Shown here piece after piece: positions 14,218-61,581 of a DNA stretch of 64,000 nt. A model generated the notes under the pieces. The model searched no databases, was not told the origin of the DNA, and saw only the letters and a list, made by a program, of their open reading frames with translations. A program made the translations under genes and the position numbers. Source of the DNA: Amoebophrya sp. A120 (lineage: Eukaryota; Protista; Dinoflagellata); contig CAJINV010000008.1 of assembly GCA_905178155.1 (NCBI GenBank), positions 2,671,303-2,735,302 on the forward strand, written 5' to 3'. Positions within the stretch are counted from its first letter, which is position 1, and each line of letters starts with the position of its first letter.

Positions 14218-17200
14218 TCAATACGTCACCTCCAAATCTTCGAATTTCGCCAGCAGGTCCTGCGCCGAGGTGCGCAGCCGCGGCTCGAATTGCATATCCA
14301 CAGTAAATTTTCCGTACACGTACACATGCGGTCTCTGCATGACAAAAATTGGATTCGATCCTTGTCTAGCATGACAAGCTTTACGCTTCAAATTGGTGAA
14401 ATTTGTGATGCACCTTGTACATGTACGGGAAATTTGTATTGCGTATTGCAAGCACGAAGTTACCAGCTCCTCGAGCAAGGGATTCCCGAGCTCCTTCAGC
14501 CCGCTCCGGGTCGCGAACGGGCTCTTCTTCTGCACCAGCAACTTCCCCATCACCTGCTGCAAATTCGTGCACTCCTCATGCGGCGAGCGCTGCAGAAAAA
14601 TCTCGGCGATGAGACAGCCCACCGCCCAGATATCCACCTTTTCCGTCAGCTTGATGGCTGCGTCAAACAGCTCCGGTGCCATGTAGCGCGGTGAGCCGCC
14701 CTCCTGCTCCTTGCGCGTGATATGTGTTTTCTCCATGGACTGGGTCAATCCGAAGTCGCACAGCTTCGCATTGAAATCATGATCGAGCACGACATTCATC
14801 GACTTCAAATCACGGTGCACGATCGGCTTCGGAGACAGAGGAGACGTTCCTGCGCCAGAAGTTGTGGCTGTGCTTGCAGGATGTTGATCATCTCCAACTT
14901 CCGTGCCCACGCCCCCGGCTCCCGCGTGCAGAAACGCGATGCCTTGGATAATGTGCAGCACAATCTTTCTTTTCGTCTTTTTCGCTAGCGTGAACTTCTC
15001 CACGTGCAGCAGGTTGTGCAGGTTGCCCCGGGGCATATACTCCAGTACCATGCACAGCTCCTGCTTCGTCGCGCAGGCGCCCAGAATGCCGACCAGCCGC
15101 TCGTGCTGCAACTTCGCCAACATCTTCACCTCCTTCGCAAACTCCTCAATCAGCTCCCGATTTACTTGTTGGTCCAAAGTATGCAGCTGGAAGTAAGCGT
15201 GCGATCTGGGTCTGGAAATACTGACGGTGCTGAGTCATGGCGTGCACGCGTATTCACGAGAAAGAGCTGCGCGTTTACAATACAAAGGGGTGGCGCTTTC
15301 GTCGGCTATGGAACACAGACTCATTTGCATATGAAATGGATCATGCAAGACAAGCAGTTACATAGCTATAGTACGCCGAGTTCTTGGACTTTTCCATTTC
15401 CAGATCCAGACCCGCAACAAATTATTTACAACCAACATACGACGTCACCACGTACAATTTCTTGATCGCGACCAGCTTCGACCGATAGTACCCGCGGTGC
15501 ACGGAACCGAAGCCCCCGGAGCCGAGGAGCTCCCGAAACTCCAGTTCTTTCGCGTCAATCATGATGTCTTGGTTGATATTGTACTCTGTCGCCAGCGTGG
15601 TGGTCGGAGAGGAGGACTTGTTCGGAAGGTTCTTTCTCCTCTCGTCGGACTGCATTCGGCCACTCTCACCTGCCGGCATTTTCGGCCGCTGATGTTCTTG
15701 CGCATTCACCGCGGGAAGTTTTGGCGCTGGAGGCGCACCCACCGCTGCGTTGGCCGTCCAGACGCGGCGCGACGGTTTCGGCTTCTGCATAGCGGTGGAG
15801 GTCGAACTTCCGGGAAGTTGTGGTGGCGCAAAATTACTAGCGACTGCTCCCCCTACTTGATGAAGAACGCCCCCCACGACAGAACCTCCACCCGATGGAG
15901 CGACGCGCTCGGGCGGTAGAAAATTGTTCGGCGCGTTCAGCATCTTGGGCATAACCAGACCCGGCGGCCTTTGCAGCTGGTGCTGCGGAGGTAATAAATT
16001 TTGCCCACTCAATGGCGCGTGAAATCCTAGGAGCGAGGGCGCGGGCGTGGTCCCATTAGACGGGGAAATCGTCGGCCGGTACACGCCTTGCTTCGGCTGA
16101 GCACTGCTGTGCTGGCTAGTGGGAGCGTGATTCGTAGCAGCTCCATCAACAGCCTGGCCCGATGCCGAGTTTTTGTTTTTTTCCTGGTTCATGTCGTCGT
16201 TCTGCACAGCAGACGGCGCAGACGACGAAGACGAAGCCACAGCTTGTCCCACTTTTGGGAACGAGTTCATTCCCTCGATCCTCTCCGCAAAATGTTGTGG
16301 AACAACTTGCGCAGGAGGAGGTGCTCCATCGACGTCCACACTAGACGAACCGCGAGGATGTGACACGACATGACACTGCCGTATCACCTCGCTTCCGCGC
16401 GCAATGTTCTTTCCATCACCGGTTCCGTCGCAGTAGCGCACACCGATCACCTCGCCGAAGGGCATGCCGTTCGTCGGCTCCACCACCTCGCTCTGCACCC
16501 ACTCGTTATTTTTCCGTGGGTATGCAGCGGAAACGCATCGATCTGCATCCGGAAAGGTCGTGTGCTTCTCATGCTACATGCGCAGGGAACACGACCGACA
16601 GACAAACAGAGGGACTGCAAAGATACGAATTTTTACTTACGAAACGAAAACGCAGCCAAGAAAATAAAAAGGTCTACGCAGCGGCCCAAGGTGACAAAGT
16701 AGAAAATTAATAAATACAAAAATTTTTATAAAAACGTGTGCGCAAGGGCAGGCCAGAATAGCCGCGGTGTCTCTATGCTTCTCTACGACCACACACTAAA
16801 CAAAGGCCTCAAAAGCCCGGCCGTATTTATTGCCCGACCAAGACAATGTAATGAGGTTCGCACTTTCCCTGGTGGCCCAGAGGACGCGATTTTCTTTACA
16901 CTCCATACCGAATAGCACTCCACGATGTCGCCTGGCTGTAGCAGTTGTCGCCAGCTTTTTCCGTGGTCCTCTGCAGACCCCCTCCCTTCACGTGCTCCAC
17001 TTGCGGGCGCTGCAGCTGTGCTCAAGACGCTTGTCGTCCGCACGCCCGGTCGGTCCGAGTCCTGCGCGGGCTCGTCCGGCGGGCGCGACGCTGTTTCCGC
17101 GGCGACTTCTGGAACAACGACCATCGGAGCTGCTGCCCCCTCCGAAGCAGGGCCCATGATCGGTGCGCCGGCAAACGAGCCGGCTAGGTATCGGTCGGGG

Positions 17201-20200
17201 TAAACGGTTCTCTCCGTGGTCTTTGTCGTCGCAGTGACAAGGTCAGCGGCACTCTCAGCGCTCGAACCAGCACGGGCAGAAGCTCCTGCGGCAGCAAAGC
17301 CAGCTGGTAGTTTCGTGGGGGAAAGCTGCTCCACCTGCTCCGGTGTCGTGTTACGGATAGTACTAGCGCTCTCCCTCTGCTGTCTCAGATACGCGCCCGT
17401 GTCGAACCTCGTTCGCTCCTTGTCCGCAGCTGCACTCTTGTTCCCTTGCAGACCGAGACTGGCAATTTTCCCCGCAGGTAGCGGTTCCGACTGCGCTTCC
17501 CCCGCTGCCAAACTCACAAGCCGAGTTCGCTGCACGCTTGTCTGGGCGGCGGTGGGCGTCAATGAGGTTGCATCATAAAGCGTTGAGTCTACTTCACTGG
17601 TCGCGACCTCCTTCTGCCTTTCTGTTCTCGCCGCGGAATGGACGCCTGCACTCGCTCCTGCCGTAGTTTTGGAACGCACTTGCTGCAGTTTCGTTTCCAG
17701 CGTTTCCATTGCACCATCCGAAGCAGGAACGCCAAGCTTGTTGCTGCTGTACACCGAAACCGACCTATCGACAGACGACAACTGCGCCGGCGCCAGCAGA
17801 ATCGTCGTAAACTTCGTTTCCTGGTAGAAAGACCCGGAGGCGGCACCAGCGCTGCTGGTACCCACAAGCCCTCCCGATGCAGCGCTCGTCGACGTAGGTG
17901 CTCTCGACGACGTCGCAGCTTGAAAGCGATTTATTTCCGGGTCTCTCTGGTGCACCAAGGTGGTAGTTTTGATCTTGTCCAGCGATTCGAGAGAGCTCGT
18001 TGCGCTGGATACATGACCAGCAGCTCCTGGATCATCTTCTCGGGAATCCACGAGGCCTGGACCAGTTATATTGTCCCTCTCTGTTCCAGCATTTTCCGTG
18101 TCTACTTCCGGAGCTCCTTCGTTGGCGAGAACAACATCAACATCAACTCCGCTAGAAGTACCATTATTCAACATCCCGGTGCGACTGCGACCGCGCCGGT
18201 TGGCGTGCGTATCGATGGTAACGACAGGCAGCAAGTGACCACCACCGTCCCCCTCGGGGTCGTCAGCAGAGAAGCTAGTGTTGAGGTGGCGGCTTTTTGC
18301 CCCGGCGCCATAAGTAGCTGACCCCGATGATCCTCCACCAGACACCACTTCTCTCCCATTCATCGTCAGATACAGTGCGAAATCCTTACGCCACTGCGGG
18401 ATCGGCAGCAGGTCACTGTCCTCCTCGACAAACTGCCGCAAAGCTTCCTTGTCTTTCAAAAGCCTCTTCGTGAACGAGTCCAGCTCCAGGGCCTTCTTAA
18501 GGTGCCGCTCCGCGCGTTTGGAGTCCTTCTGGAGCAGCCTGGTCAAGCAAACCCACCGGTGGAGCCGCCCCTGCTGCTTCCGGTTTGCCAGCATCGCTTC
18601 CTGATCGTTTTTCTTCTGCTGCTGTTGCTGCTCGTCCTCCGCGGTGCGCAGCGTGCTATGCAACAAGGCCAATTAATACCGATATGGATCTGGGTCTACA
18701 CATTTCTTGCCACATCTACCACGTATCGCTGGCAAAAGCCCGAAGACCCCGACGCCCGTAAGCATCTATGCAACGCATGCCACGCAGGAGCGAGGTCTCC
18801 GAAAAACAAAAACCCTTTACACGAAAGCTTTAAAAAATCTATCAGGCTTCTCTCAACATGCGCACTATTGAGTTATTTCATGGCACCAGAAATCGCTTGA
18901 TATGTGTGCTCTCTCGTCTGGCCAGTCTCGGTTCAGCCCCAGAAACACTTCCAGTGACATTTTCTGGCAGAACGTACCACATCGATATATTGTATTTGCG
19001 TCTGATATGTGTCCATGAGAGAAAGGTTGATCTGCTCGAAGAGACGCAGGATATCCGGGTGCTTGCTGGCACTCTGCAGCGTCGAGTTCGGCGTGGTGAT
19101 TTGAATTGCGTGGATCTCGGTAAGCTTCCGCGAGACGTCGTTCGTCACTTTCTGCACCTCAAGCTCCAGCGCTTTCTGCATCTCCGCGCGCTGATGCTTG
19201 GGCTCTTGTAGTTGTGGTCTCATCTCGTTCTCGGAGTTCTTCCGTCCGGACTCCACCTCTTGCGCTTTGCTGCTCGAAGAAGTCGATGGCTCAAAGTTCA
19301 TCATATTTCTTGCACCCGGCCCACTCGTCGCATTCTGGACGAAAATGTTTTCGTCTTCTTTCCGACTGGTCTTGTAGTCTCTCGTATTCCCCGTGCGTCG
19401 ACTATCAGCTTCAGCCAGCGGCCCGGTTGTAGCTCCAACTTCTCCGGCCAAGGAGTCTTCTTCCCTCGTCGTCCCAGCGAACGGTTTCGGCCACAAGTCG
19501 TGCTGGGAAGCAGGGACGAGGGACGGCGGTGCCTCCGCGAGGTGGCTTGCTGGTGCTGCACTAGTATGGCCGCTGGTGGACGTCTTCAGAACTACACCCG
19601 TAGGAGGTGTCTCACGCTGGGCAGCTGCTGCACCAGGGAGACGACCTGGTTGTCGTTCAACATCTGGCTGTGCAACAAACTCCTCGTCGAGTTGCTGTGC
19701 CAAAGCCGCGTCCAGCCGCCGCAGCTCGACAATCGCTTGCGCCAGCGTGAAGCCCCCGTACGCAATCCCGATGGTCTGCTGCTGCCGCTCCAGCGCGAAC
19801 AGCGCGCGGCACAGCACGACCCAGGCCTTCTTTTCCGCGCGCCCGTGCGGGTGCCGCACCACCCGGGACACCAGGTCCACGGCCGCGACAAAGTATCGGA
19901 GCGTCAGGATCGAAATCGAGAAAGTCGAAAAATTTGTGATGCATAAAATGTAGGACACTGAACCCCTGTATTGGGGAGCAGGCAAATGAGACCGATTGTG
20001 AGCCTGTTTAGGGGCATGCAATGCGCTGCCAGAGTAGCACGACAGGAGCAGTCTTCTGTGCCCAAACAGCATGACAGTCTGGATTTGGGCGCTCCCGAAA
20101 TTTATCATGCGCCACTTGAGACCTGAGGCTCCAACTGACATCGATTTTGTGCATCGCAAGTTTTTCGATTTTGTCAATTTCGATTGTTCTGACACTCCCA

Positions 20201-20962
20201 TACAAAGTCCTCTTTCCGTAACTTCTCCGCTCCAAAGACTAACTGCAGATCGAGCGGGTGCGTATGAAACAGGCAAAAATTAGAAACCATCGGACCTCCG
20301 ACTAGTAGCTGTAGTACACTTGGCAAAGGTGGAAAGCGGTTCTTGTATCTGCCCTCGGTAAAAAAAGTTGTATATTAGTCAATCTTGTTCGGTATCGGTA
20401 GTCTCTTCAATATTACCTTATTTTTTTATGAATGTTTCACACCGGAACGAACGCCAGTTCTTGTTAAATTGGTCATTCAATATTTGCAGCTGCGAGCAAG
20501 CACACAACTGGAAAAGAACGCAGCGAGGAATGCATTTCTGTTGGCATGGACGAGGAGAATCAAAATCCAAATCTTGAGCAGGAACATCACACTGCAAATA
20601 AACATTGCAACCTTTCTTTCTGCTACTAGCTCTTGCCGATATTACAGCTTTTCTGTATCCCAAAACTCTCCCGAAGCGTTTTCCGGGTCGTGTCGGAACC
20701 CGATTTCCAGCATCGCAGTGCACTCGCGCACCCGGTTCAGTTTGTGTAACGCACGGGCGCGGAGGTACAGAAACGGAATGAAAAGCTTGTGGTTCCCCGT
20801 TGATGAAATGGCGCCGCTGGATGTGTGCAAAAGTCTCCCAGTGTCAGAGAAATCGTAGCCCGACTCCCGGTCGAGGGAAGTGAGAACCTGTGCCCAATCT
20901 GCTGGCGTTTGCGCAATCTCAGCCTGCTGCTTCAGTTCCAATAAGAGAGATGCGGCGGACAT
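14218..20962 (-). CDS. Large multi-exon TKL-type protein kinase (helical N-terminus, small SH3/Tudor-like segment, C-terminal kinase domain)
   Basis: GSGGFGSV, AIKK, HRDLKSMN, DFG, YMAPE and DIWAVG in 14218-15560. Removing TIR elements joins QPGDIVECYS to PRKNNEWVQSEV, and EKLRKEDF to VAAVDLV. The kinase domain is secure; the 5' extent is less so. Confidence 0.8.
14295..14445. mobile_element. TIR introner, TSD TTGCA, in kinase subdomain XI
   Basis: TTGCA at 14290-14294 and 14446-14450; imperfect TIR (AAATTTTCCGTACA / TGTACGGGAAATTT); removal gives SCLQ-FEPRLR. Confidence 0.85.
15201..15415. mobile_element. Eroded TIR element within a kinase intron
   Basis: TCTGGGTCTGGAAAT ... ATTTCCAGATCCAGA core shared with the 31018 family; no TSD found. 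Confidence 0.5.
16521..16907. mobile_element. Degenerate TIR introner
   Basis: TATGCAG... / ...CTCCATA ends; excising G+element+C gives in-frame YS-PRKNNEW; TSD not recognisable. Confidence 0.5.
19894..20202. mobile_element. TIR introner, TSD CAAAG
   Basis: CAAAG at 19889-19893 and 20203-20207; ~50-bp imperfect TIR related to the 58868 element. Confidence 0.88.
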
Positions 20963-21947
20963 GATTTTAAATGTTTTTCTTTCATCAATCAGATCTTTAA
21001 TATTTTTACGGACGAGCAAGTAACTCCGACGCAGGTGACGTCCACGCGCCTCAATGACGTTTCGCACTTTTCCCAGCCCAGCGAACCACTCATCGTCTCG
21101 AAAAACTACTGTACTGTACTTTTCTCGCTCTTGCTACCACATCACCCCTCTCTGTACGACTTCCTGGCTTCTTGTCCCATTTTTTTGAAACCATGTGTTT
21201 TGCGGCATCGTTCGCCCCCCTGCTTCGCGGGGAGCACAAAACTTGGATGCAGGTTCAGTGCCCGGGCCAGAAAGGAATTAGAAGAAACATAAAAGACAGG
21301 CGAACAATCCGTTCTTCCCCAAGGAAGAGCAGCCGTCGCGAGGAAACAACCCACCTTGGTGGCACAGGTAGCCACCTGCCGCAAAAGTCTATGGATGGAA
21401 GTGAGTACTCGAAACCTGTGCAAAAAATTGTCTGCGTAAATCTCAATTTCAGCACGGGACATAACTCCTCATAAATCACGGGGGCAACTATGGCAACGCT
21501 TTTCAGTAAGCAGCTCTAATTATGACCTTTAGCTTTTCGGTACCAGCTGCGGCATTTTTGCGATGTTGTGTTCTTGGAAACTTTCGTATGTAAAAAAAGT
21601 GTATGACCATCAACGCCATGCACGGTGATTTTTCGCAGTAAAGTTTTTTACTTCGGTGCACAGATATTTGTCGCGGCTGGCTGTACTTTGACTTTCTTAC
21701 ATAGTGCAAGCATCGCATTCATGCTCACATAGTAGAAGCCTATGGATCTTGTTCGGAAGCCAATAAAGATAAACCCGGGTCGTGGGAAAGGGAAGCACAA
21801 ACAAATCTTCAAACAAAATACTATACTTAAAGGTGTTAGGTGGAAAAAAGCACTGCAATTGGAAAAAAAGGGGGTAAAAAAAAGTACAAAGAAAAAAAGA
21901 GCTGCGCCTATTCAGGCGGGAAAAAAAATGCTACGCCCATTGCCGCG

Positions 21948-24900
21948 CTATGAAAACGCCTTGAGCCCCATGTTGGCAAAGGTCATCTCCATGGGTGCGT
22001 TTTCGTCTTTGTGTTGGTGACTGACATAGGCGTCGAGCAGTCGTTTCGTGTGTGCTACCTCCTCCTGGATCTGGAGCAGTGAGACCGCGACGGACTCCAT
22101 CTGTCCCTCGTCGAACAGCGTTTGGTAGACGTCGTTCATCGCCGCCACGGACACCATGCCCTCGATGTCCCGAATCACGTCCGCGTGCAGCTCCTGCTCC
22201 GATTTCGCGTTCACCGTGGACTTGAGCACGCCCCCGGCTTTCTGCGTGCGCTCGAGCTCCTTGGTCTTCCGGGCTATGAACGCCTTGCGTATCATGTGCT
22301 TCTCCACCTGGTTTAGGTAGTTCAGGTACGCCTGCCGCGGCATGGACAGCACCTTGTTTCGCAAAAACCACCCCGGCTTGTACTGCCGCTCCTTCTCGTC
22401 GTACTCCACGCGGAGCAGCCCGATCGGGAGAAGCAGCAAATTGTACAGCTTCACCGTGATCTTCTTCAGGTCCTCCTCGCTGTGAATGTCCGTCGTGTCC
22501 ATCTGCAGGTTCTCGCGGATTGACTCGAAATGTTGCACCTGAGGTGTGGAGAGAAAAAACTCATCCTGATGCTCTGTTGTAACTAAAGCCAAAAATACAA
22601 ATTCAAAATACTAAATTGCAGGTCTGTCTCAACCGAAGAAAACCAAAGAAAACGGTATAAAAAAATCACACATGCACATCAAAGGGACTGATAATCGGAG
22701 GCACTTCTAGCGTTTCATTTTCATACTAAAGATCTTGCATTATCGTCTACGTTAAAAATCGGCATCGCAAACCCTCATTCAACTTGTCCTATTCGTCCAA
22801 CTTTTTCCTGTATAGATGCCAACGAAAAATCTATGAATCATGTAAAAAAATTGAATATTACGATTTGTTCCGCGGGCGTAAGTTGGCTTTTTTTGAATCC
22901 CTCCTCGTCGTCAGCGCTGAGGGCCGAGGAGTCGAACCAGAGCAAGCCGTTCGTGATCAGTAGGTTTTTCAAGAACTTTTCCATGCCTACGGTCGCTCGT
23001 CGCCTCCTTTCCTCCGTGACGACCTCAAACATGATTTTGGTGACCCGCCCGGACACAATATTCATGAGCACGACGCCGGAGAGCAGTAGCCCCAGGATAA
23101 ACCAGACGGAGATCCACCAGTCTTGGTCCGCCAGCAGGTCAATAAAGGGCATACTGTTGTCCTGGAGCCACAAACGGAGGCAGAGCAGGATGGTTCGGAA
23201 CCACGTGTTCGCAATAGGCATGATGCTGGTCTCGAAGTTCAGGTTCTGCGAGTCCGAATAATCGCCGCTCGTCTGGTCCCGATACTTCACGTACTGCCGC
23301 AGCGTCACAGAAAGCGCCAGCATCTATGCATCGCAAATATCTTTCGATCGATCTGGGAGGTCTGCGAAAAATTGCTGCAATCGACAATTTTTGTACTCTC
23401 TTCATGATGAAATCTTGATGATGAAAAATACTACCTCAGTGGGTACTATATGTATCCATCCAGGCATGACAAATCATTGGCTAGGTCGTAGAGAAGAGCC
23501 ATGCGTTGTAAAAAAAAAAACTGCCCTGGATTGGAACATTATCGCATTTTTGCATGACAGTCCGTGTGGCGCTCAAGAACGTCCGCTTCATGTCTAAAAG
23601 GATTTTGTTTCGCTCGACACACCGCGCAATGAATACGTATTCTTTCCGTCCTTCCAGAAGATCGATATTTGCAAGGGATAGCATCACCATCGAGACAATC
23701 AAAAGATCCGGGCCGATCTCAATCAAGACCCGCTGCGTCGTCCGAAAAACTACTACTACTTCCTCGTACTTTCGCAACCTGAATTGATGTCAGATAGGAG
23801 GAATTTTTTTTTCCGTTCTCTAACCATGATGCACAACCAAAGTACTACCCGTCATCTGTTCTGTTACTTATAGCCCTATGCAAATGAGGCTTATTCTTAT
23901 TGCTTCTTCGTTCCTTTACTTCATCCCTTCAGCTATTTTCTACTATGGAAGCCCTGCCAATTTTACACCTTTTTGCTCATGGTCATGCAGAAACAAGAAA
24001 CGACAGCGAATTCTTCGCCTGTGTAGATAGACAAAGAATGGCACTAAGTAGCTGTACTAGCTGTACATCAAGTGTGTACAAGTATAATGATCTTACTTAT
24101 CTGATAGAAGTCTTATACCTGCTCATCCGCAGCAGCCGTAAGAGCTTGAACATAACTGCGGCGCCCGCGCTGGACTCCTCCCCGATCGCCCCCAGCTCGA
24201 TGAGCTGCGTGAGCAGGCAGAAGGAATCCACCCAGTTGAAAATCAACTCGTCCCACAGGTGGCGTGGTGGGAAGTAGAACCGCCAGAAGTAGCCCTTGCA
24301 CCGGGCCACGCGGAGGCCCACGTCAAAGAGGTAGACGAAGAAGAAGAACAGCTCGGCCCACCACCAGAAGTAGGCGAACCGGCTCAGGTCCGCCTCCTCC
24401 GGGTCGTGCACGTCCGACTCCACGGAAAAGATGATCAAGTTCGCGACCACGCAGAACATGATCGTCGACTCGAAGTAGGGGTGGCTGTAAATCTCGTCCG
24501 CCTTGCTCGGGTGCCACACGCCGTCGCGCCGGAGCCGCCACTCCTTCTCCACCTCCAGCTGCGCAATCACCTTCTCGCGCCACAAAGTCTGCTCCCGGGT
24601 CTCCACCTTATTCTGCATGACCACGTTCTTCACCAAATTCTCCATGTTCGGCTTCTTCCGCAGCGTCCCCTTCTCCTCCAGCTTGGCCCGGGCCTTCTGC
24701 CACACGGCAGACTTCCCCGACTTTAGCAGCGATATTCGATTCCCCGGACTCGGCCGGGCCGCGCTGCTGGAGGACGTCGCGCCGCCGGCGCCGCCCTCGT
24801 TATTCTTATTGTTATTCTCGTTCTCGGCGTTCACGCCCAGAGACTGGGCTCCTCCTTCGCGACTAGTCTGTCTCTTGCCCCCCAGCAGGTTCGCGGCGTT

Positions 24901-48167: not shown

Positions 48168-51100
48168 TTATTTCTTCCCCTTGGGGCTCTTTGCTTTTTC
48201 GGCCGCCTCGGCCTCTTCGGCGATCTGGATCTTCATCTCGGTTTCGAACGACCTGTACTTGGCCTGCATGGCTTCGATTTTCAACGCCAGAATCTCCTCG
48301 TGCGACTTCGTTGCGGCCTCCTCTTCCTGCACCACCCCCTCCTGCTTCTGCAGTTCTTCGGCCAGGTCCCCGAGCACCTGTTTTCGCTTGTCGAAGTAGA
48401 CCACCGCGGCCTCCTCCCGCTGCAAAAACTGCTCCATCATCTGCGCTATGGATCACAAATTTGTGCATCGTAGTTGTACACACGAGTTGGCGTAGAAAAT
48501 TGAGCATGCTGCGCTAAGTACTTACTTTACTCTACGTCTTGGGCTTCTTATAAATATTCACTTCTGGTCTTGCAGCCGTCATCTTCCACTAACAGATTGA
48601 CCTTCGCATTACAGCTTTTTGCTAGTACAAGAAATTCTTTACATCTTTTACCCGGGCGAGACTGCATTTCGCTCATGAGCAGGCAGCTCGTTTCGCGCAA
48701 TGAAACAGACACGCAACTGCAGTACCGCGCAGGAAATAAAGGCAGACCGAAGATACTGAGCGAGACAGTCTAGTTTGCATTATCCAACGAGTACTTCTGT
48801 GCCTCGTATGACGATGCTTTTGACACTAGTCCCCCAGAGCATAACAACCTCCTTGCTGCTACTGCGGACGAGATTCTTTGGCAGCTGCATTACGTGCAGG
48901 TGCCCATCAGCGTCGCCCACAGCTAGCATATCCTTCGTCTCCGCCTGATTCAACGTTTTTGCAATTTTATTTCTCATTTCTCATCAAATTCATAGAAGTC
49001 CATTTTGTACTACTGGCGAAGCGACACGCACATACATCACTATCTCAAGTAGGACTTCTACTCGCCAAGTTGTATGTAAAGATCCTAACCAGAGCCGTAC
49101 CTCGGGGTGGAAGCACATGCTCGATATCGCGCTGGAGCTGACGCTGAAGGCGAGGCTGGCCTTGTGACTCTGGTCGCTGAAGTCCCACACCTCCACGAAC
49201 CCGTCCATTCTACCGAGGTATACGACAGAACTCCTTGTTGGGGACCAGCACCCGCAGGTGAAATACGCGGACGGAGAGAGTGGCGAAGAAAATCGTCACG
49301 ACTGAAACGGTATGGATTGCAAAAATGTCTGGGTCTGGAAACTTGTAATGCTAAAATGTGCAAGAGGAAAACACTTCCTTATGCAGAAAACCATGACAAG
49401 TTTGCAGAACGCTTTCCCATCCGAAGTCCGCATGAGAAACTGCGTTTTTGTATGACATGAGAGGCTACCATTTTTGTTGGTTACGCAATACAGATTTCAC
49501 AGGAGTGCAAGACCAGCATGACAAGTTACATCCTTCCAGACCCAGACATTTTTGCAATCCATAAACGGAAGCGAAGTGGTGGCTGCCAATACTATTCTTT
49601 CAGCACAGATATCTGGTGTGGGCTCATGTCCCGGCGCTTGTACTAGAAATGGGATTGCGCAGCAGCTTTGCTACCAAAGATTACAAACACAGTGTTGTAC
49701 TGCTGTCTTGGTCACCGTGTGCGAGTCTATGAAGTCATTCACTAATTCATCGTGCGAGGAGACTCGCGGGTTACTTCATGGCAAGGAGTTTCGCTTCCGT
49801 TCAAATGGTGCGCGGTTGCAGCTCATGTGCGTACTGATGGTGATGCGAAGACCGTTAGTGTGTCGTTCCATATGTAAAAGCTCCAGTCGCACACACCTGT
49901 AATTTTAGAGGACTCCGCTTTACGAAGTTATGAGACGAAATGCACATGAAAAAGCGCTCGGCACCCCATAATGATAAAAAATTGTTTGTTTGTCTGAGAA
50001 AGCAGCTGAGAAGCACAAGGAAGCAGCAAGTGGTCCGCAAGATACTGATACCGAGCAGCATGTTCGGAAATATGGGGCTCCTCTCCAAGCTTAGCATGGG
50101 TCGGAAGGTCTTGGACACACTGACGAGTTTCTTTACGTACTCGGGCTTACGGTCCTCCTCCCCTCGTGCCGTCCAGTCACCTATCCGGTGCAAAAAAGGG
50201 TCCTGCGAATACTAACGAAATTCTACAAGTACAAGTGGCAACTTTGGATGCTATACAACTGCGAAATAAGTGCTGGGGCTTGCTCGTGCACGACAAACGT
50301 GCATCCGAACGGCGCGAAATGTACTCACCAAGTGAAGATGTTCACCAGGCGGTATCACATGAAATACCTGTAGACTGTCCCTGTCGTGAAGAGGTGCATA
50401 AGACAGGCGACTGCACACGCTGTCGCAAGCGCAACAATACTGACCAGTATAATAATCAAGAATGCTTGTGCTTATAAAGGGTTAGGCGAGCTGCCTATTT
50501 TGCCCGGGATATCGGCGTAGATGAGTTCTCCCTCCTCGGTCGAGGCGTAGAAATTGCCGATGGACGGGTCTCCGACAGGCTGGTCGCAGTACATGACCTC
50601 ACAGCAGCCCATTTCTGTCCCTGAGTCCTGCCTTGAAAGCTGCACGCGATGAACTGAGGTTTCAATAAGGGGCCAACGTGTAGCAAGTCTATTATCAATT
50701 TCATTTTCAGTTCGTTCCAATGCAGCTTGAGAAGAGATGCAGTGCATACTTCGCTCTGATTCAATTGATCTGAAACACAAATTATATCGCCGAAATCACA
50801 TTAAAGGCCCGATTACAAAAAAAACGGAATCGATGCTTCACCTCGTACCTGGCTTCCACTGGAAATCTGTTTCGTTTTCTTCAAACGCCTGCTTTGCTGC
50901 GGCAAAGTCCCAAATGAGAAATTGGCCGTCTCCCGCTATTGTGCACAAATACCTTATAGGCCCGTCCTCCGGACCTTTGTCGCCGGTCTTGGCTGTGCGT
51001 GTGTGTGTTTTTGTTTTTGTTTTGATACGAGAAACGACAGGTGGACAAGCAAGAAGCAAGTATACTAAAGTAGACTTCGAGGAGTAGCATGATGCTTGGA

Positions 51101-54100
51101 ACTGAGACCAGACCGTTTATCAAAAAAACGCCCTCAATACCTTTTTTTCCTTCTATTGTTATCTTCGGTGGCAGCCAGCACATACTGGACACTGGCTTCT
51201 TGTGACTGTCGTCTATTATTGAAAGCGTTTTGTGTGTTATCTGTGGCACCAAGTTTTGTCCCCCACTATCGTCCTCGACTTTTGAGCTTACATTTTTCGT
51301 CGCTCTGTTTGTAGTTTTCTTGTAATTATTTTCTATCTCGTGGCACGGACAATCAAACAGAAAAAGCATTGTGTTTTCAGCACGAGAAAATTTCTTTGAT
51401 TTTCTCTAGCTCAATTTTCATTCCCCTCACAACTAAAGAGTCATTACTTACCCCAAGTCCGCGGGTGAGAACTTCCACATGATGAGTTGCCCATTCGCCA
51501 AACCACCGATCAGGTAGTGTCGGTCCCCAGGGTAGAACTGGAGGCAGTTGCATCGAAAGGAAAGCCTTCATCGCAAACTTTTACTTTATTTATTTATGAT
51601 GATAGGTCGTGGTGAAGATCTACTTGTGGTTCATCGAGACAGGGGAATACGAATAACGCAACAGGAGCTATTGCAAAGTTACTAAAAGTACTTATTTCGC
51701 CTGCGATGTAGGCTGTGACGACATAAATACTGCGCTAGTTTTTCCTGCATATGCTGACGTCGTAGGGACTGAGCAGACTCGCGTGCGGTGCTAGCGCGTC
51801 GGCAAAGCTCCACAAAAGCACGTAGCTGGTAGCGGCCTTTGTGGCGGCCAAAGTCTTGTCGGAAGACGTGTCCACACAGGAGACCGCCAGCAGCTCCGAG
51901 CTATCAAATGCAAAAGTGTCTGGGTCTGGAAGATTCTGACACTTGTCATGCACGTTTTGCATGAGCCATGTTGTCTGTGATGCATCCCCTAGCAATACAG
52001 ATTTTTTGAGGGCCTCTTGATGCGTATTCCGCATGACAAATGCCTTCTCAGCGTAGCAAAAATTGCCTTTCCCTTGGTACGCATGCAATACAAATTTTTT
52101 TGGAATCCAAATGCAGCATCACAAGTTGCATTCTTCCAGACCCAGACATTTTTACATTTGATACGAGCTGCCCGGGACCCATTTCGTTGCCTGGATGCGC
52201 TTGTCCTTCGTGAACGCCACGTCGTGGAAGTTCCGGAGCTCTTTTATGTTGGAACTTGCCTTCCCGTATCACAACAGAAACCGCTATCGAAGAATAATCT
52301 CAGCTCTGAATAGTTATTTCTTTTTCACTTCTCTTACGCGATTTCCTTTTTTTCTCCTTGCTGTGTTCTATTCATCTTTTTCGCCCCAATAACTTAGGAC
52401 CCGAAATACTTGCGCTACGGTCGCAAAAATGTGTCGAGTTGTTCATGCAAATCTCGGTGAAGTCATCTCTTTCTGCCTCAGGCGTGCGCCTGCTCTTGCT
52501 GGAGCCTTCACTACAAAATTGCTATCGAGTAATACTTTTATCGTCGACTGCGCTGCGAAATCACAAAGCATTTCCTATCTCGACTAGCCTTCTGAGAAGT
52601 TTCTTTTTTGTGATATCCCGCCTAAAGGGCCCATACCGTCGTCGTCCCCCATGCCTGCAAACTCTTCTGCGAAAAGGTCGACGGTTTCGTTTTGCTGTAG
52701 CGCCATGTCAACGCGCTCGAAGACGCGCCGCAAAAACTCGGTCAGAGACTCCACCTGCGTTACGGCTACCTGCGAAAGGGTAGGGAGTAGCTTGAATTTT
52801 TTTTTTTGCACGAACAAGCCGGACAAAATAAACACGTCTGTCCATCATGAACCATCACCAAAACAGTTGATCAACTTCTTGTTGCCAATTTTTCTTGTAG
52901 GGGTGACATCATACTGCGTCTGCCGGGCATCAAAAGAACAGACCTGCCTTACAACGTACGAGATTCTAAATTTCATCAACCATCGTGAACAACACGGTTT
53001 AAAATTGCTCGTACATCTTCTTTCTCTCCAAAGTCGTCAGCTGCGTACTGCGTGTTGGCGTTTTTTGGGCGCCCCGCGTGCGTCTGACAGTTGCCCTCCG
53101 AGACCACAGGTACTGCCTGCACGCCCTTGTCTAGCTCCCGCCGTAGCAGGTTGAAATTGGGATCCTTCTGTGGCTTGTGCTGTACCGAGCTCTCGGCGTT
53201 GTCGTTGTATTTTTTGGCCTCTCCGAAAAAACTCCTCTGTCGCGCAATCATCACTTTTAGCAGCGGACGCGTGTTCTTCACCTGACAATTTTAGGAGCAA
53301 AATGTTAGTTCGCCTCGTAAGTACCTGCATCACAGAACGTGATGTCCCTGTGGTCATGCGAACGATCGAAGTCAGAGTTTCTCCCCTACTTAATACCGTC
53401 ATCCCGTCCACCTCTTCTACGGTAGTCTGCGTCGTCTCCGAAACGTAATTCCGTGGTGAGTATGCATTGCAAAAACGCGGCACCTGCCGGCGGCAATTAC
53501 CGAGAGGGATGAGAAAGAACCAGCCAGGTGAAAGACGGATCTGCTAGTAGTCTACAGTCGGTTTTTAGTACAGAGTAGCGTTGACCCGAGTGCTGGATGG
53601 CTGTACCTTCAGCCTCCTTACTCAACTGGTGAAAAATGCAACTCCAACTACCATGACAAAAGCGTATCGTTTCGATTTTGAGTTTCTTTTTCTCCCCAGG
53701 CTCCGCCACTGGTAGGCGCGACGGCGAACTCGCACGGTTTTTCTTTGGATACCGTTATTGGCTCGTCCTTGACAAAAACCGTTTCGTCTTCCTTAAACAC
53801 AAATCAATTGCAAATAGAGCCGTGTCAGTGAGCTTGCAAAACTTGCCAGAGCTTTTCTGCGATGGATAGTGGTACTTACTGGTAAAAACAGGCTTGCGCT
53901 GCACGACAGCAGGGTACAACGACACCTGTACTGCTCAGCTGGCGTTGCGATGCAGACCTCTTCACTTTCGACGATAATTCAACACAGCAACACAAACTGG
54001 GAAAATTTTCTGCGCTTATTTCATCCGTGACCGTGACACTGACTCATCTGCAATGGGTAACACATATGCTGGACCACTCGCAGCACCGTCGCCGCCTGCG

Positions 54101-56005
54101 CCCCCTTCCACTGCGTCGCCGGCACCGCCAGCCCCGCTAAGGGAAGCCAGATACTCCGCTTGGATAGCCTCTTTTTTTTCCTGACAGAAATTTTCGAATA
54201 AACATACGCGCGTTCCTCTTCTCGTGGACAAAAAAATTCGTTGCTCCAGTATTGTGCTGGAGAAACCAGCACGTAGTACTTAGACGTGAACCCGTATCAA
54301 AGCTGGTCATAGATGATCGATGTGACAAAACCGTATGTCAGCCTTACCTCTATCACAGCGACCATGGCTTCATATGCTGGGACGGTCTGGCACCACACGA
54401 AGTTGTCCCCGAAGACCCGCTTGCTGGTATGAAATTGAAAAAGCACGTCCTCAAAATGCACGACCCTAGATTTGCAAAAAACGCAGACGCTTGATCTATT
54501 GATTATTTTGCCTCCACAGATGCTCATGTCACTGTCAGCAAAACAGTAGTGAAGAAGCACTGTCGGATTATAACCAAACAACAGCCAGGTCGCAAGTAGG
54601 GTCGTTGCCTTTCGGAATATTGCTTTCAATGTCATAGCTGTCCCTGACCAGCAGCATAAACTCGAGCGTATATCTGTAGTGTTTCCCGAAAATCATATGT
54701 AGAAGCACTGCACTGTCAATCACAAATAACTATCGACTCATTTACATTTTCTGATTGTGGACGGGGGTAAAGAAACGTAAAACCTCATTAAAAACGCCTT
54801 AATCATCAAAAAGCAGCACGAAATTATGCGTGAGTACTTCATCAGATCCTTCTCGTGCGCGTGGAAGTCGGAGTAGAATCCTACCCTCGCAATATCGTCG
54901 AGGCGCTATCGCAGTGAAAATTCTTGCCAACGCGACTACGCGGGCACATGCGAGGTGACATGATTGCATCTGGATCTGCAAAATCATATCAATTTTAACT
55001 TTCACGATGAACGTATGCAAACAAATTCTTCGTCAGACAATATCGATCCTGCGAGGTCAACATTTTTGCGGCTTGACCGACGCCTTCTTCGCACAGTAGT
55101 CGGTGTAGAGTTTTTCATGTCGATAGCTGCTCCTGCTTGTTGATGAAGACGTATAGTTTATGGAAAGGAAAAACTCCACAGCAATAAGCGCGATCACAAT
55201 TTTTGCACATACAGAAATCAATGCCTTTCCAACGGAATGAGTTTAAAGTTCGTGAAGGGGAGAGGTTGGTTTTCGTAACTGCTGCTGGTGTCACCAATGA
55301 CGGGACGAATGCAAACAATGAATAGTATAGCGTTCTGCCATATAGTCCGCAGAGAGACCTTGCTGCTTCTTCTTGGTGATATTTTTTCTCGATGGTGAAT
55401 GATTGCGATTTATTGCAGGTGGATTTTCCCTACATACGGCATGGCGTTTTTTCCGGAGAAGAAGATTTCTTTACTCTTTTCCTGCTGCACCACCACTTTG
55501 TATTTCATGTAATTTTCCGTATTCATGAAAAACGCCTTCATGCCCGGCATGTCCTCGTCCAGCGGCAGCTGACCCATCTTCTCCATTATCTCCACCTCCG
55601 TGAGGCCCACCTCCCGCGTATCACCCTGCAATACAGCCCATCTTGTTCGTCCCCTGAAGAACGTCGTGTCTTGAAAATTCGAGGCTCTGTGATCTGTAAT
55701 CATGAGCATAGACACAGATCAAAAACGATGGAAACGGTCCTGTAGAGCTGACCATCAACATTTGTTTCTAGATCTGCAAGTAGTACATACGATCCATTAC
55801 GCAAGCCTGCCACCTCGGATTTTTATCTTCTGTTTGAAAATACAAGAAATTCAGGCGCATGCAAATCATAGGACGAAAGCGAAAGGGCCGAATTTGCAGT
55901 GTGATATTGCGCTGCCTCCTCGCCGGGCTGCTCTGCCCCGGCATCGGCCCCCTCGGCCGGAGCTCCCTCCTCGGGAGCAGGTGCTGCCGCAGCTTCTTCC
56001 GACAT
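48168..56005 (-). CDS. WDR63: Axonemal inner-arm dynein intermediate chain WDR63/DNAI3 (IC140-like), many exons
   Basis: RPLLKVMIARQRSFFG; VDMALQQNETVDLFAEEF; ASTEEGELIY; SLERSPIFPNMLLGVCDWSFYIW; CWSPTRSSVVYLGRMDGFVEVWDFSDQSHKASL; LAVGDADGHLHVMQLPKNL; FLQREEAAVVY. The 5' exons are less certain. Confidence 0.85.
49311..49563. mobile_element. TIR element with perfect 30-bp TIR, TSD AACGG, apparently nested in an intron
   Basis: TATGGATTGCAAAAATGTCTGGGTCTGGAA and its exact reverse complement; AACGG at 49306-49310 and 49564-49568. Confidence 0.95.
50182..50511. mobile_element. TIR introner, eroded TSD (TCACC/TCGGC)
   Basis: TATCCGGTGCAAAAAAGG / CCTATTTTGCCCGGGATA; splits GELIY|GDWTAR. Confidence 0.78.
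51902..52163. mobile_element. TIR introner (GTCTGGGTCTGGAA family), TSD CGAGC
   Basis: CGAGC at 51897-51901 and 52164-52168; TIRs nearly identical to the 31018 copy and the same 262-bp length. Confidence 0.95.
52267..52615. mobile_element. TIR introner, TSD TCCCG
   Basis: TCCCG at 52262-52266 and 52616-52620; TATCACAACAGAAAC / GTTTCTTTTTTGTGATA; removal gives GPLGG-KASSNIKEL. Confidence 0.85.
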
Positions 56006-57756: not shown

Positions 57757-60700
57757 TTAGGCAAAGAAGCTGAAGGTTTGGCTGGACTCGGCTTCCGCCA
57801 CCGCCTGCGGCTGTTGCTCTTGCTTTTGTGCCTCTCCTTTTAGGGTCCTCCCCGCAGCTGTTACATCGTCGACGCCAGGTGTATCACTTACTTCCATTCT
57901 TGTTCCTCCGTCTTGTGTGGTGTCCCGGTTCTTTTCTTTCGCGTGGCCATTTCCTTTTCCGATGCCGGGAGAACTGCTACTTGTAAACGCGAGCAAAACG
58001 GAAGCAGCGAAAAGGAACAAGGCCAGCAGCAGCAACATCGTCAGCACCAGGCCAGTCGGGGTTCGATAAAGCAACCGGCTCAGAGTCCCCGCGGTGGTAC
58101 TTGTTCTTTCCGTGAGATGAACAAACGGGAACCATGTTGACCACACGGTAGATTCTTGTTCGCCATGGGAGACTAGGACACGGATTTGTTCACCATGGGG
58201 GTAAGCGGACCTGCTCGGTGTAGAAGTCTCGGTCTGCAGAAACGAGCTCTTCTTGGCCGCAAGTGTAGTTCCTTGTCCGCCGGCCCACTCAGACCAGTCC
58301 CACTGGTCTTGCCACACTTCGTACTGTCCGGTCGTCGTGTCCCATATGGCCAGCTCAACTGTTGCGTAGTCCTCACCTGTTACATCTACATCATAAACCA
58401 AGAAATAGTGTTTCGTACACAGAAACACTGCACACAAGAGAAAGATCAGAGCTACAGTGCAGCTTGCATGGCAAATCAATGTGGGACATCGATATATTTC
58501 GGCGCCGCTCATCGAGGTATCCCAACAAGTTTGTGTATGTGTCGCGCTGTCAGACTTGGAACCAACCCCAAGGCCATTGGAGATTTTGCATGACAAATCA
58601 TGTATGGGTCGTTGTTGGCTCACAACATAACAGCTGAGAACGTTACACTTACAGCTGAGAAGGCCATATCCCAATACAGCCACTTCTGCAAGTTGTCGTC
58701 CCATTTGTACCAGCTGTTTTCGTCGTACCAGTACGCCCAGTGCTGCAGATTCTCGTCCCAGTACCAGTTACTCCAGCTCCAATCACCTCCCGCGCCGGTT
58801 GCGGCGGCAGACGACGACGACGCAGAGCCGTCCCATTTGTAGCCCCCGCTGCCGTTCGTTTTTCCGTGATGGGACTGTCAGGATTGAAATCGTCAAAGTT
58901 GAAATGGTTTGTGGTCATGCATAAAATGCAACGCAGAAATTGTCTCTATGGCAGAGGACGCAAGTGAGGCAGATTGTGAGCCTGTTGAGGGGTAGGGATA
59001 GAGCTGCTCAAGTAGCATGACAAAAGGCGTCGTCCTTACTCAAACAGCATGACAAACTGGATTTAGATTCTACCCAAATTTGTCATCCGCCACTTGGAAA
59101 CTGGGCTGCAACTGGCCTCCATTTTCTGCATTACAAATCTTTTCAACTTTGACGATTTCAATCCTGACACATCCATATCCGTCCGCGTCCTTGTAAAAAG
59201 AGTCGGTGGCCCAGTTCCAGCCGTAGTCCGCCTTCCCCGCGTTGTAGGCCGCCTGCAGCTTGGAGTTTTGCTTCCACGCGCCCTTCCACGCCTTCTCCCA
59301 ACGCGGCTTCACCTCCTGTTCCCAAACCCGCTTGTCCAGCTTGCGGGCTATCCGGGAGAAAAAACCACGCACAGGTGAAGATGGTGCAAGAAGATCCCCC
59401 ACAATATATTTTTCTTGCAAAGCTTGAGATCATGCGCACCGAGACCAAAGAGAAATGGAATTTCGATCACTCATGCAAGTGAGTGTAAAACTTGAACTTC
59501 TGTGCGTTCACTGCATGACGTATGTAGTTGAAATGAACTCTATGCTTATATATAGTCGAGTTCATGCGCATATAGAAATCTCGCAACAGTGTGTGCAGAA
59601 GGTTTTTTCTCTTCCATACCGGCTTTCGCTTTTTCCAGGAGATCCGTCAGTTCCTTGGTTCGCTGCTTCGCCTTTTGCAGCAGCGCCTCTTCCTTCGCAC
59701 ACTCACTTGGCGAAGCGCCGTGCCGCGGTCGCGGGTGCGCACGTTCTTGTTCTGTTGTCCCCCGCGGCCCGTTCTCAACACCACGGCAATCCCAGTTTGG
59801 CTCGTTGCGTTCGCGCACCACGTCCCCCCATGCCTCTTCGCACAACTTCTGCGTTTCCCGCATCTGTTCGGTGAACGCGGATTCGCCCGCGATGTCGTAG
59901 CCACCCGTCTTGGCCCGCAGCAGTGCCCGATCCTCCGCCTTGGTTCGGACCTTCACCACGTCGTCTGACCTATCCTGAGTAAAAACGTACCCACACCAGA
60001 GTTGTAATGCAAATCTGCATGCTGGAAATGTTTCTCATGCGGAGCCCCATGAGAAGCATTTTCTAGTCGTGTTTTGCAATCTGTCATGCTCCAATCAGCA
60101 TGGTAGGCTAGATCTGTGATGCTGCTGAGCTTGCTCAAACAGCACTACACTACGAATCCAAATTTGTCATGCAAAACAGTCAAAACTTGTGGATTTGTCT
60201 AGCCGATTCCCCATCTTGACTATGGTGTGGGTACGTTTTTACTCAGGATATGACCACGGGGTCAGCTTCCGCCGCCGGTACTCTTCCAGCATGTATTGGC
60301 TCTGTTCCAGAGCCGCGATGCCCGCGTTGGCTAGCCCGCACAGTGCGTCGATGCCCACGGCTCCGTACATCCAGTTAGGATCGCCGGTGCCCACGGCGGA
60401 CGCCTGCATCGCGCCCGAGAGTGGGTTGGAAAACCGGAAGCCATGGTACGCATCCATGTCGTAGCCCGCCTTCTCCGTCGGCGAGGAGAACGCTATCGAA
60501 AGGAAAAATCCTCCCTCCCCATATCGAAGCGGAAACTTCTGTTGCTGGATTTGCGTGTTGCTGGATTTGCGTACACAAATCAGCTTTGTATTGCAAGAAG
60601 GCATTGCGACCAGATCCCCAGGCTAGGTTGGGGCGTATCGGTCTAGTTGCTCAGCATGGCAAATGGCTCGCATTTACCTTTAGGCCCAACAGCATGGCAA

Positions 60701-61581
60701 ATCGCTTCCATAATGGGCGCGAAGCTTCTGCCCTTGTCTCCTTGCAAGACAGATGTCATTTGTGACCTCAAATCAGCAACACAAATTTTCGGAAGCGTGC
60801 TTTTTTGATATGGGGAGAGGGAGTTTTTCCTTTCAATAAAAGTCCCTTGCGTGTTCCGCTTTCCCCGCGGTCGCGCGGCCGACTGACGGTTTTTAGCAGA
60901 CGCTCGTCGTGCGCTGCCCAGTTTAGACTGCATTTCCTGCTGGACGCGGAACTGCTGGTGGACTTGCTGTCCCTGTTCCTGATCCACCGCCTGCACCTGC
61001 GCCTCCGCTTCGCGCGTTTCGAGTTTCTTTTCCTTTTTCGTCGACGTCGAATGCGTGTTCTTCCGTTCTTGCACAAACGACAACGGTGAAGCAACTGCAT
61101 TACGACCGGATTTGGAGTCCTCATTCACTTCCAGAAGAACAACTGGCTCCACTTCTAGACGATCTTCCGCATGCTTCTCGTTTCGGCCTGGCTGTTCCTG
61201 TTCCGGCGAAAAAAACTCATTTTCACCTCCGTTTTCCGGCGCAGTAGATGAACATTCTTCTTGTTTGGTTGCAGTAAGATGACCATGGAGCTGCAAGGGC
61301 GCGGTTTGAGAAATTCGTGGATCTTCTTCGCCGTCAGCTGCGCTCGTCTTGATGTCCTCAAAATTACCAACGGGACTCGTCGAAGCCACAGAAAGCAGCA
61401 CGCGGGACAACAAGATTCCGTGAAAAGAATGGAGGTGCGATGGGAAAAACAGGCGGGACGCGACCAAGGCCGAGAAGCGGGACGGCCTTCGTCTCGACCA
61501 GGAGGTGGATTGCACAGCGGGCTCTTGTTGCCACTGAGTCCCCCTCTGCCGGCTCCCAGCCACGCTTCCACTTCCAGACAT
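57757..61581 (-). CDS. Probable secreted/surface protein with Trp-rich repeats and C-terminal TM, multi-exon
   Basis: Exons join in frame after TIR/direct-repeat removal; SFVQ/SFLQ motifs; WYWDENLQHWAYWYDENSWYKWDDNLQKWLYWD; TM LVLTMLLLLALFLFAASVLLAF. Confidence 0.6.
58518..58674. other. Direct-repeat-bounded non-canonical intron (TATCCCAA x2, 149-nt offset)
   Basis: TATCCCAA at 58518-58525 and 58667-58674; removal joins KWLYWD to TSMSGAE. Confidence 0.6.
58868..59177. mobile_element. TIR introner, TSD TCCGT
   Basis: Perfect 29-bp IR core TGTCAGGATTGAAATCGTCAAAGTTGAAA; TCCGT at 58863-58867 and 59178-59182; removal gives KDADG-KTNGSG. Confidence 0.92.
59971..60250. mobile_element. TIR introner (TATCCTG family), perfect 28-bp TIR, TSD TGACC
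   Basis: TATCCTGAGTAAAAACGTACCCACACCA plus exact reverse complement; precise GT-AG excision gives TPWS-DDVVK. Confidence 0.95.
60494..60838. mobile_element. TIR introner, eroded TSD (AACGC/AAAGT)
   Basis: TATCGAAAGGAAAAATCCTCCCTCCCCATATC / GATATGGGGAGAGGGAGTTTTTCCTTTCAATA. Confidence 0.85.

What the first reader, a model, noticed from the sequence alone, without database searches (positions are those of the whole stretch)
14290..60843. One superfamily of ~20 TIR 'transposon-introns' shares TAT...ATA ends, 5-bp TSDs and an internal motif
Seen: about 20 elements of 150-490 bp in 64 kb, nearly all sitting exactly where a protein breaks and resumes. Thirteen have exact 5-bp TSDs: TTGCA, CAAAG, GCATC, CGGTC (x2), CGACA, CTCCT, GCTTG, AACGG, CGAGC, TCCCG, TCCGT, TGACC. 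TIRs fall into at least three recurring families (GTCTGGGTCTGGAA; TATCCTG..AAAAAC; GTCAGGAT.GAAATCG) plus singletons, yet share terminal TA(T) and TSD length. Established: inverted/direct-repeat introner elements and abundant non-canonical introns are known from Amoebophrya genomes, so the class is not new. Inference: the shared end chemistry points to one transposase/integrase lineage mobilising all these families in trans; none is encoded in this window.
Basis: partly seen in the sequence, partly recalled or inferred. Interest (0 to 1): 0.85.

Follow-up and report, generated by a model that had tools for sequence, protein, structure and literature searches.

The report
Transposon ends double as splice signals
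These are the already published transposon-like introns of the marine parasite Amoebophrya A120; transcript contigs drop each element plus one copy of its 5-base flanking repeat, and the informative junctions all fit one fixed cut position, which likely means the transposon's own ends act as the splice signals.

Summary
All 13 named 5-bp repeats exist; I count 31 elements (151-491 bp), 15 with intact repeats. The window is Amoebophrya sp. A120. The class, the TAT-started inverted repeats and 5-bp direct repeats are in Farhat 2021; a 'Ginger, 5-bp TSD, TA/TA' call for one family is in Gozashti 2025's dataset. So the headline is known.

What the tools add: spliced contigs remove element plus exactly 5 nt. 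All nine junctions where decayed repeats limit sliding allow one register, N|TAY...RTA-NNNN|: the cut falls 1 nt before and 4 nt after the element. Farhat left this border undetermined. In a second, near-identical assembly 54 of 59 copies of one family have an exact 5-bp repeat, 42 clusters share the end, 40 of 42 share an internal motif, and copies lie in both orientations with no GT/AG bias.

One mobilising enzyme lineage is plausible (about 0.6) but unproven: none was found, and splicing alone could select for these ends. One named element lies inside an intron, not at a protein break. A G-U wobble test for RNA stem selection did not replicate.

The parts
14295..14445 (-). element, TSD TTGCA intact, in kinase gene
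   Evidence: open frame after removing element+5; no RNA laid
19894..20202 (-). element, TSD CAAAG, GTCAGGAT family
   Evidence: no RNA laid
23325..23680 (-). element, TSD GCATC, downstream exons of the gene whose upstream exon hits Ion_trans
   Evidence: no RNA laid
27237..27646 (-). element, decayed TSD; cut register 3 or 4
   Evidence: contig piece starts at 27648, one side only
29620..29993 (-). element, TSD 4/5; spliced, 379 = 374+5
31018..31279 (-). element, TSD CGGTC, GTCTGGGTCTGGAA family; spliced, 267 = 262+5
31423..31790 (-). old element, decayed TSD; spliced, 373 = 368+5
33016..33327 (-). old element; non-slidable junction, register 4 only
33525..33785 (-). old element; spliced, 266 = 261+5, register 3 or 4
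35321..35563 (-). element in proteasome PSMD3/RPN3 gene, decayed TSD; spliced, 248 = 243+5, register 3 or 4
36954..37205 (-). element, TSD CGACA; spliced, 257 = 252+5; opposite orientation to 49311 and 51902
37295..37785 (-). element, TSD CTCCT, TATCCTG family with extra internal sequence; spliced, 496 = 491+5
37910..38295 (-). element, second CGGTC TSD, 3' end altered; spliced, 391 = 386+5
   Evidence: record coordinates
43979..44349 (-). element, TSD GCTTG, EF-hand gene
   Evidence: contig lacks 790 nt = 376 + two GT-AG introns of 255 and 159 (the two intron lengths counted by hand)
48447..48843 (-). old element; register 4 only
   Evidence: single solution against P0001; contig edge at 48442
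49311..49563 (.). young element, TSD AACGG, near-perfect TIR (35 of 38 bp), nested inside intron 49275-49834
50182..50511 (-). element, TSD 3/5, in WD40 (dynein-intermediate-chain-like) gene
51551..51751 (-). old element
51902..52163 (-). element, TSD CGAGC, GTCTGGGTCTGGAA family
52267..52615 (-). element, TSD TCCCG
53461..53751 (-). old element
53802..54059 (-). element, TSD ACACA, both ends altered
54428..54636 (-). element, TSD 4/5
54907..55125 (-). old element
55159..55436 (-). old element
55619..55906 (-). element, TSD 3/5; register 4
   Evidence: contig edge at 55908
   Evidence: part of the 919-nt sum
58868..59177 (-). element, TSD TCCGT, GTCAGGAT family, one end altered
   Evidence: 919-nt sum
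59349..59618 (-). element, TSD 4/5; register 4 or 5
   Evidence: contig edge at 59619
59971..60250 (-). element, TSD TGACC, TATCCTG family
   Evidence: contig edge at 59965
60494..60838 (-). element, TSD 3/5
   Evidence: no spliced contig listed

Best explanation
These are the non-coding, MITE-like introner elements of Amoebophrya A120: each has TAT...ATA inverted ends and a 5-bp flanking repeat, is missing from spliced transcript contigs together with exactly one repeat copy, and is likely cut at one fixed register set by its own ends. Shown: anatomy; removal of element+5 nt; in transcript sense the intron fits N|TAY...RTA-NNNN|, starting 1 nt before and ending 4 nt after the element, so the pre-insertion mRNA is restored. 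Inferred: (a) a DDE enzyme of the integrase-related kind, encoded elsewhere or now lost, inserted the elements with a 5-bp stagger and little target preference, binding the ends and the TGYVATGC motif (about 0.6); (b) the host U2-type spliceosome, for which no U1 snRNA was found, reads the terminal TA as intron positions +2/+3, as in the GTA of its ordinary introns, ignores +1 and the final AG, and places the 3' cut 4 nt past the far end, probably helped by end pairing (about 0.55). Because both ends look alike, either orientation is spliced, so exonic insertions would be nearly harmless, which would explain their spread.
For: Organism: exon 100% identical to A120 protein P0001. Removal: 8 of the 15 joints listed skip element+5; a ninth follows from record coordinates; the other 7 are GT-AG introns. 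Sums: 919 nt = three elements+15; WD40 gene 5189 nt = the 21 introns of P0001. Register: 9 of 9 informative junctions allow k=4, three allow nothing else, none allows k=0 or 1. The five whose ends were fixed by TIR scans intersect at 4 alone. P0001 allows k=4 in 11 of 11. All 21 non-canonical introns have T at +2 and A at +3, 19 of 21 T at -6, and any base at +1; 15 of 16 GT-AG introns also have A at +3. Second assembly: 54 of 59 exact 5-bp repeats, none 6-10; top class in an end-blind scan is 5 bp with TAT..ATA, 202 against 33; removing element+2/5/8 gives a coding-like junction in 153-154 of 243 against 43-53 otherwise; largest family 24 forward, 21 reverse; G at +1 in 51 of 151, final AG in 16 of 151. 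Motif in 40 of 42 clusters against 4.1 shuffled; 12 of 15 young against 5 of 16 old window elements.
Against: No transposase or integrase hit in 31 window ORFs or in the 101 loci ORFs tested of 320 over 170 aa; Farhat found none in A120. The laid runs are only guessed to be RNA, are contigs, and come from one sample. Four of the nine register cases rest on one contig edge plus the assumption skip = element+5; for four weak old elements I chose the ends after seeing the junction. The +2T/+3A tally places each intron at k=4, so it shows fit, not an independent measurement. Two old elements do not pair their ends in the predicted fold, and the G-U test did not replicate, so stem dependence is unsupported. 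One 560-nt intron and 37910 lack the 3' motif. No empty site was found. Only 32 of 243 elements have identical first 10 bases at both ends.
Confidence: 0.72

Rival explanations
1. The shared ends and 5-bp repeat are a filter imposed by splicing, not a sign of one enzyme: several unrelated transposons insert, and only those with TAT...ATA ends and a 1+4 = 5-bp repeat are removed cleanly and survive in genes.
For: The register needs exactly these two features. Gozashti's table assigns A120 families to several origins, including one Mutator family with 8-9-bp TSD and GG/CC ends. Cluster interiors are unrelated at my thresholds.
Against: An internal motif apparently not needed for splicing is shared by 40 of 42 clusters, often at offsets 32-33 or 41-44 from an end. 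The nested copy 49311, which need not be spliced on its own, has the same ends. The same 9-nt ends recur across up to 8 clusters.
Confidence: 0.3
2. The elements are removed by a separate structure-reading nuclease and ligase that measures from the terminal stem, as proposed for euglenid nonconventional introns, not by the spliceosome.
For: No GT/AG requirement and both orientations; fixed offsets like the Euglena N3CDG...CHGN5-6 rule; terminal 20-nt duplexes of -4.7 to -29.6 kcal/mol; U1 snRNA not found in A120.
Against: The +2T/+3A match to ordinary introns; old elements with weak stems are still removed exactly; no replicated G-U excess; 83 of 89 spliceosomal proteins reported present.
Confidence: 0.25
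3. The elements are cut out of DNA in some life stage, and the joined contigs are DNA.
For: The kind of runs X1-X4 is only a guess.
Against: The same contigs also lack ordinary GT-AG introns. Run X5 gives an unbroken contig over 43500-49333, element included. Farhat's introns were RNA-seq supported.
Confidence: 0.03

Closest known systems
Amoebophrya A120 introner elements (Farhat et al. 2021, PMC7789003)
   Same: Same organism and same elements: 8-20-nt IRs starting TAT, seven variable bases, then A-run; 3-5-nt DRs, 5 bp in the example figure legend; repeated; spliced.
   Different: Farhat calls the splice position relative to the hairpin variable or unknown (Fig. 3 legend) and rules out general transposase mobilisation. 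Here the repeat is uniformly 5 bp and the cut fits one register.
A120 introner family 38 (Gozashti et al. 2025, PMC12130899)
   Same: Dataset note 'Ginger; 5-bp TSD, TA/TA Termini'; about 810 bp with ORFs similar to Copia/Gypsy sequences.
   Different: One 5-copy family; most other A120 families are left 'Unknown', with automated TSD calls mostly 2-6 bp. The paper's text says family 38 lacks Ginger termini and TSDs. No element here carries such an ORF.
IS3EU/GingerRoot DNA transposons (Kojima and Bao 2023, PMC10045372; authors recalled)
   Same: TA..TA termini, TIRs.
   Different: TSD usually 6 bp there, 5 bp here; no transposase to compare.
Euglenid nonconventional introns (PMC12501133)
   Same: No GT-AG rule, paired end motifs at fixed offsets, slidable direct repeats, proposed MITE origin.
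   Different: Signature N3CDG...CHGN5-6|R there; N-TAY...RTA-N4 here; unrelated lineage.
Fritillaria non-canonical introns (review PMC11282704; PMC13326754)
   Same: Transposon-derived introns with TIR and TSD, removed by a modified U2 spliceosome.
   Different: Mostly AG-AC/AG-AT borders and U1 retained there; here +1 and the last two bases are free.

Membership tests
A120 introner elements (Farhat 2021) | Amoebophrya A120 genome | tested here: met
   100% identity to A120 protein
A120 introner elements (Farhat 2021) | IR starting TAT + 7 nt + A-run | tested here: met
A120 introner elements (Farhat 2021) | 3-5-nt direct repeat at the borders | tested here: met
   5 bp
A120 introner elements (Farhat 2021) | repeated in the genome and removed from RNA | tested here: met
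MITE (non-autonomous TIR transposon) | short, TIR, TSD, multi-copy, no transposase ORF | tested here: met
   three long copies inspected
MITE (non-autonomous TIR transposon) | cognate autonomous element or transposase | tested here: inconclusive
   none; whole genome not held
MITE (non-autonomous TIR transposon) | empty orthologous site with one repeat copy | tested here: inconclusive
   0 found among held loci; A25 ortholog aligns at 71% with few gaps, protein level only
IS3EU/GingerRoot | TA..TA termini | tested here: met
IS3EU/GingerRoot | 6-bp TSD | tested here: not met
   0 of 59 with 6 bp
IS3EU/GingerRoot | DDE transposase of that clade | not testable with these tools
   no enzyme sequence obtained
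Ginger2/TDD | 4-5-bp TSD | tested here: met
Ginger2/TDD | TG..CA termini (recalled, from no call) | tested here: not met
   ends are TAT..ATA
Euglenid nonconventional introns | N3CDG...CHGN5-6|R signature | tested here: not met
U2 spliceosomal introns | GT/GC-AG borders | tested here: not met
   21 of 37 introns lack GT-AG
U2 spliceosomal introns | lariat and branch point, snRNP dependence | not testable with these tools
   contigs cannot show lariats

The most novel reading that the evidence does not exclude
A120's apparently ruleless non-canonical introns follow one simple code, N|TAY...RTA-NNNN|, written in the ends of a single integrase-related transposon superfamily. The 1+4 cut matches the 5-bp insertion stagger exactly, so the host splicing machinery undoes any insertion, in either orientation and at any target, and the published variety of splice dinucleotides is largely an artefact of sliding alignments.
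Probability: 0.55. Interest if true: 0.68.

Novelty: already known. Interest (0 to 1): 0.45.

Why it matters
The elements are published, so the finding as written is mostly a rediscovery. The refinement matters because how Amoebophrya removes more than 60% non-canonical introns without a detected U1 snRNA is stated as open. A fixed register turns that into a rule that can be checked on existing RNA-seq and in minigenes, corrects gene models, and gives a clean case of splicing matched to a transposon's insertion stagger. The shared end and internal motif also give a search image for the missing enzyme.

Tried and rejected
G-U versus A-C mismatches in the terminal stems, as a sign of selection on RNA pairing: 20:9 in a first set of 26 that held one wrongly drawn element; 27:14 in the corrected 30 (first 13 nt, p=0.06), 19:7 in the 16 with decayed repeats, 8:7 in the 14 intact; 60:67 in 151 oriented second-assembly elements and 16:22 in its 32 decayed candidates. 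Not replicated; rejected as evidence. Folding two old introns: no end pairing in the predicted structure, z -0.56 and +0.76. Enzyme search: no transposase family; short recalled integrase motifs gave two DxGxEF hits: the one in L074 lies in a stop-filled frame over a host exon, the one in the window is in a frame with stops and was not followed up. The long copies L024 (1104 bp), L059 and L077 show no such motif, and L077 is a composite of shorter elements. Viral-contig scan: 4 hits without TAT ends, treated as chance. No empty sites. No target-site consensus. Raw-read run X9 laid only 120 partial reads, nearly all on one element end, and was uninformative; run X5 swamped the joint table. No RNA holder is on record as RNA. 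Whole genome not held; loci records not searchable. Earlier-findings look-ups were empty. Candidates 36093-36379, 48807-49099 and 54907-55186 were dropped.
Full report
OBSERVATION. A scan for TA...TA segments with an exact 5-bp flanking repeat and inverted ends found 14 hits at TIR >=12/20, against 0-1 in five shuffles. A relaxed scan added elements with decayed repeats. After RNA and gene-model checks I count 31 elements, 151-491 bp, 9,410 bp in all, between 14295 and 60838: 15 with intact and 16 with decayed repeats. The three TIR families are confirmed by self-BLAST. The host genes tested read on the minus strand (Pfam hits; GT-AG introns).

ORGANISM. An exon at 49128-49277 is 100% identical to P0001, an annotated Amoebophrya sp. 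A120 protein; the A25 ortholog is 71% identical with few gaps. So these are the elements of Farhat et al. 2021.

REMOVAL FROM TRANSCRIPTS. Runs X1 and X3 are contigs, guessed to be RNA, from one sample. On 27000-38600 the 15 listed joints (of 17) are 7 GT-AG introns and 8 skips equal to element+5 nt: 379, 267, 373, 317, 266, 248, 257, 496; a ninth, 391, follows from record coordinates. On 43500-61500 the joint table was swamped by run X5, but record coordinates give sums: 919 nt missing between 58340 and 59618 equals three elements plus 15; 790 nt equals the 43979 element+5 plus two GT-AG introns (lengths counted by hand); and the WD40 gene lacks 5189 nt, the sum of the 21 introns that P0001 implies. 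In that gene 9 introns are GT-AG, 11 are elements+5, and one 560-nt intron contains the AACGG element, which is therefore not at a protein break. For 14295, 19894, 23325 and 60494 I have only an open frame after removal.

THE CUT POSITION. With an intact repeat the junction slides over six positions. Where the repeat has decayed it cannot. Let k be the number of repeat bases left on the upstream exon. The nine informative cases allow k = {2-5}, {4-6}, {4}, {3,4}, {3,4}, {3,4}, {4,5}, {4}, {4}. Only k=4 fits all; a rough chance figure is below 1e-4. Caveats: four cases use one contig edge and assume skip = element+5, and four weak elements were delimited after the junction was seen. The five with ends fixed by TIR scans (27237, 29620, 35321, 55619, 59349) still meet only at 4. 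P0001 allows k=4 in 11 of 11 and only k=4 in one. Placed so, all 21 non-canonical introns have T at +2 and A at +3 with any base at +1, and 19 of 21 have T at -6; 15 of 16 GT-AG introns also have A at +3. In 30 elements the 5' T and A are invariant while the last base of the 3' end is kept in 25 (partly due to how I searched). Farhat's nine top A120 non-canonical classes all begin xT. Gozashti's largest family has 69% xT starts and 68% Ax ends; picking among slides for GT-AG likeness on my elements gives 77% and 83%, so published borders may mix registers. That is a simulation, not a check of their pipeline.

WIDER SAMPLE. A pattern scan of metagenome contigs returned 156 loci; the 80 rows shown all lie in JACKZZ01 contigs. 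I analysed the 151 stored loci (533,559 bases, partly overlapping, dereplicated by flanks). One gene there differs from the A120 protein at two residues in the mapped blocks, so this is the same or a very close species, not an independent lineage; it shares only elements with the window. Of 59 paired copies of one family 54 have an exact 5-bp repeat and none 6-10 bp. An end-blind scan of 1,235 inverted pairs, many of them pairings between different copies, gave 202 of the class 5 bp/TAT..ATA and 33 for the next class. A catalogue requiring TAY ends and a 5-bp repeat held 243 elements (7 in a shuffle) in 42 clusters, 18 multi-copy, with a shared end TAT-S-x4-G-x-AAAAA and no target consensus. 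Removing element+2, +5 or +8 left a coding-like junction in 153-154 of 243, other offsets in 43-53. A codon model right on 28 of 30 window elements (2 undecided; trained on the same window) oriented 151 of 243: families occur both ways (24/21, 13/21, 6/6), +1 is G in 51 and the last two bases are AG in 16, both near background. The motif TGYVATGC is in 40 of 42 clusters (shuffled mean 4.1), often 32-33 or 41-44 nt from an end, and in 12 of 15 young but 5 of 16 old window elements, p=0.011. This suggests a role in moving rather than splicing.

WHAT FAILED. The G-U wobble test was suggestive in old window elements (19:7) but not in the second assembly (60:67; 16:22). Two old introns do not fold end to end. 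No transposase was found in 31 window ORFs or 101 of 320 long loci ORFs; spliced genes could hide one. No empty site was found.

MECHANISM. Shown: anatomy, removal of element+5, fit to one register, both orientations, no GT/AG need. Inferred: insertion by an integrase-related DDE enzyme in trans; reading of the terminal TA as +2/+3 by a relaxed U2 spliceosome; 3' cut set 4 nt past the far end. The shared internal motif and the nested copy weigh for common descent, but only moderately.

LITERATURE SEEN. PMC7789003: abstract, outline, Results parts 2-3, section 16, passages and supplement legends and table rows; figures not seen, and Figs 3, S19-S25 may show more of the register than their legends. 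PMC12130899: passages, all 58 A120 rows of supplementary file 8, legends; file 14 not searched; consensus sequences not seen. PMC10045372, PMC12501133, PMC13326754, PMC11282704, PMC12005148: passages only. Roy 2023 and Henriet 2019: seen only as cited by others. I found no statement of a fixed register in these or in searches; the library lacks most subscription papers.

VERDICT. Real, and an already known system. Interest 0.45.

Noticed in passing
window 11447-13497: Tandem array of a 177-bp unit, 11.6 copies, 98% matched, each with a perfect 34-nt palindrome; no TAT ends.
   Followed up: no
window 1947-2424 and 21507-21910: Two TA...TA segments with exact 5-bp repeats and short gapped inverted ends, lacking TAT; no match in the second assembly's loci. 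Other element type or chance.
   Followed up: partly
window 49275-49834: 560-nt intron starting G-TAC but without the 3' motif, holding a young nested element; stepwise removal is possible.
   Followed up: partly
window 41115-41620, minus strand: A divergent histone H4-like gene with one GT-AG intron, recognised by eye; the name is recalled, not tested.
   Followed up: no
second-assembly elements, e.g. L077 5001-6031: The outer 9-10 nt come in a small set of types that recur across families and usually differ between the two ends of one element (identical in 32 of 243), hinting at end swapping.
   Followed up: partly
L024 505-1608: 1104-bp TAT...ATA element with 5-bp repeat, long TIR and GC-rich internal repeats, no Pfam hit in its longest ORF.
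   Followed up: partly
window 1-14290: No confirmed TAT...ATA element in the first 14 kb, against about one per 1.5 kb afterwards.
   Followed up: no
window 52115-52163: Raw RNA run X9 laid about 110 reads from what looks like one other locus of this family, element end joined to its flank, i.e. unspliced or exonised element RNA.
   Followed up: no
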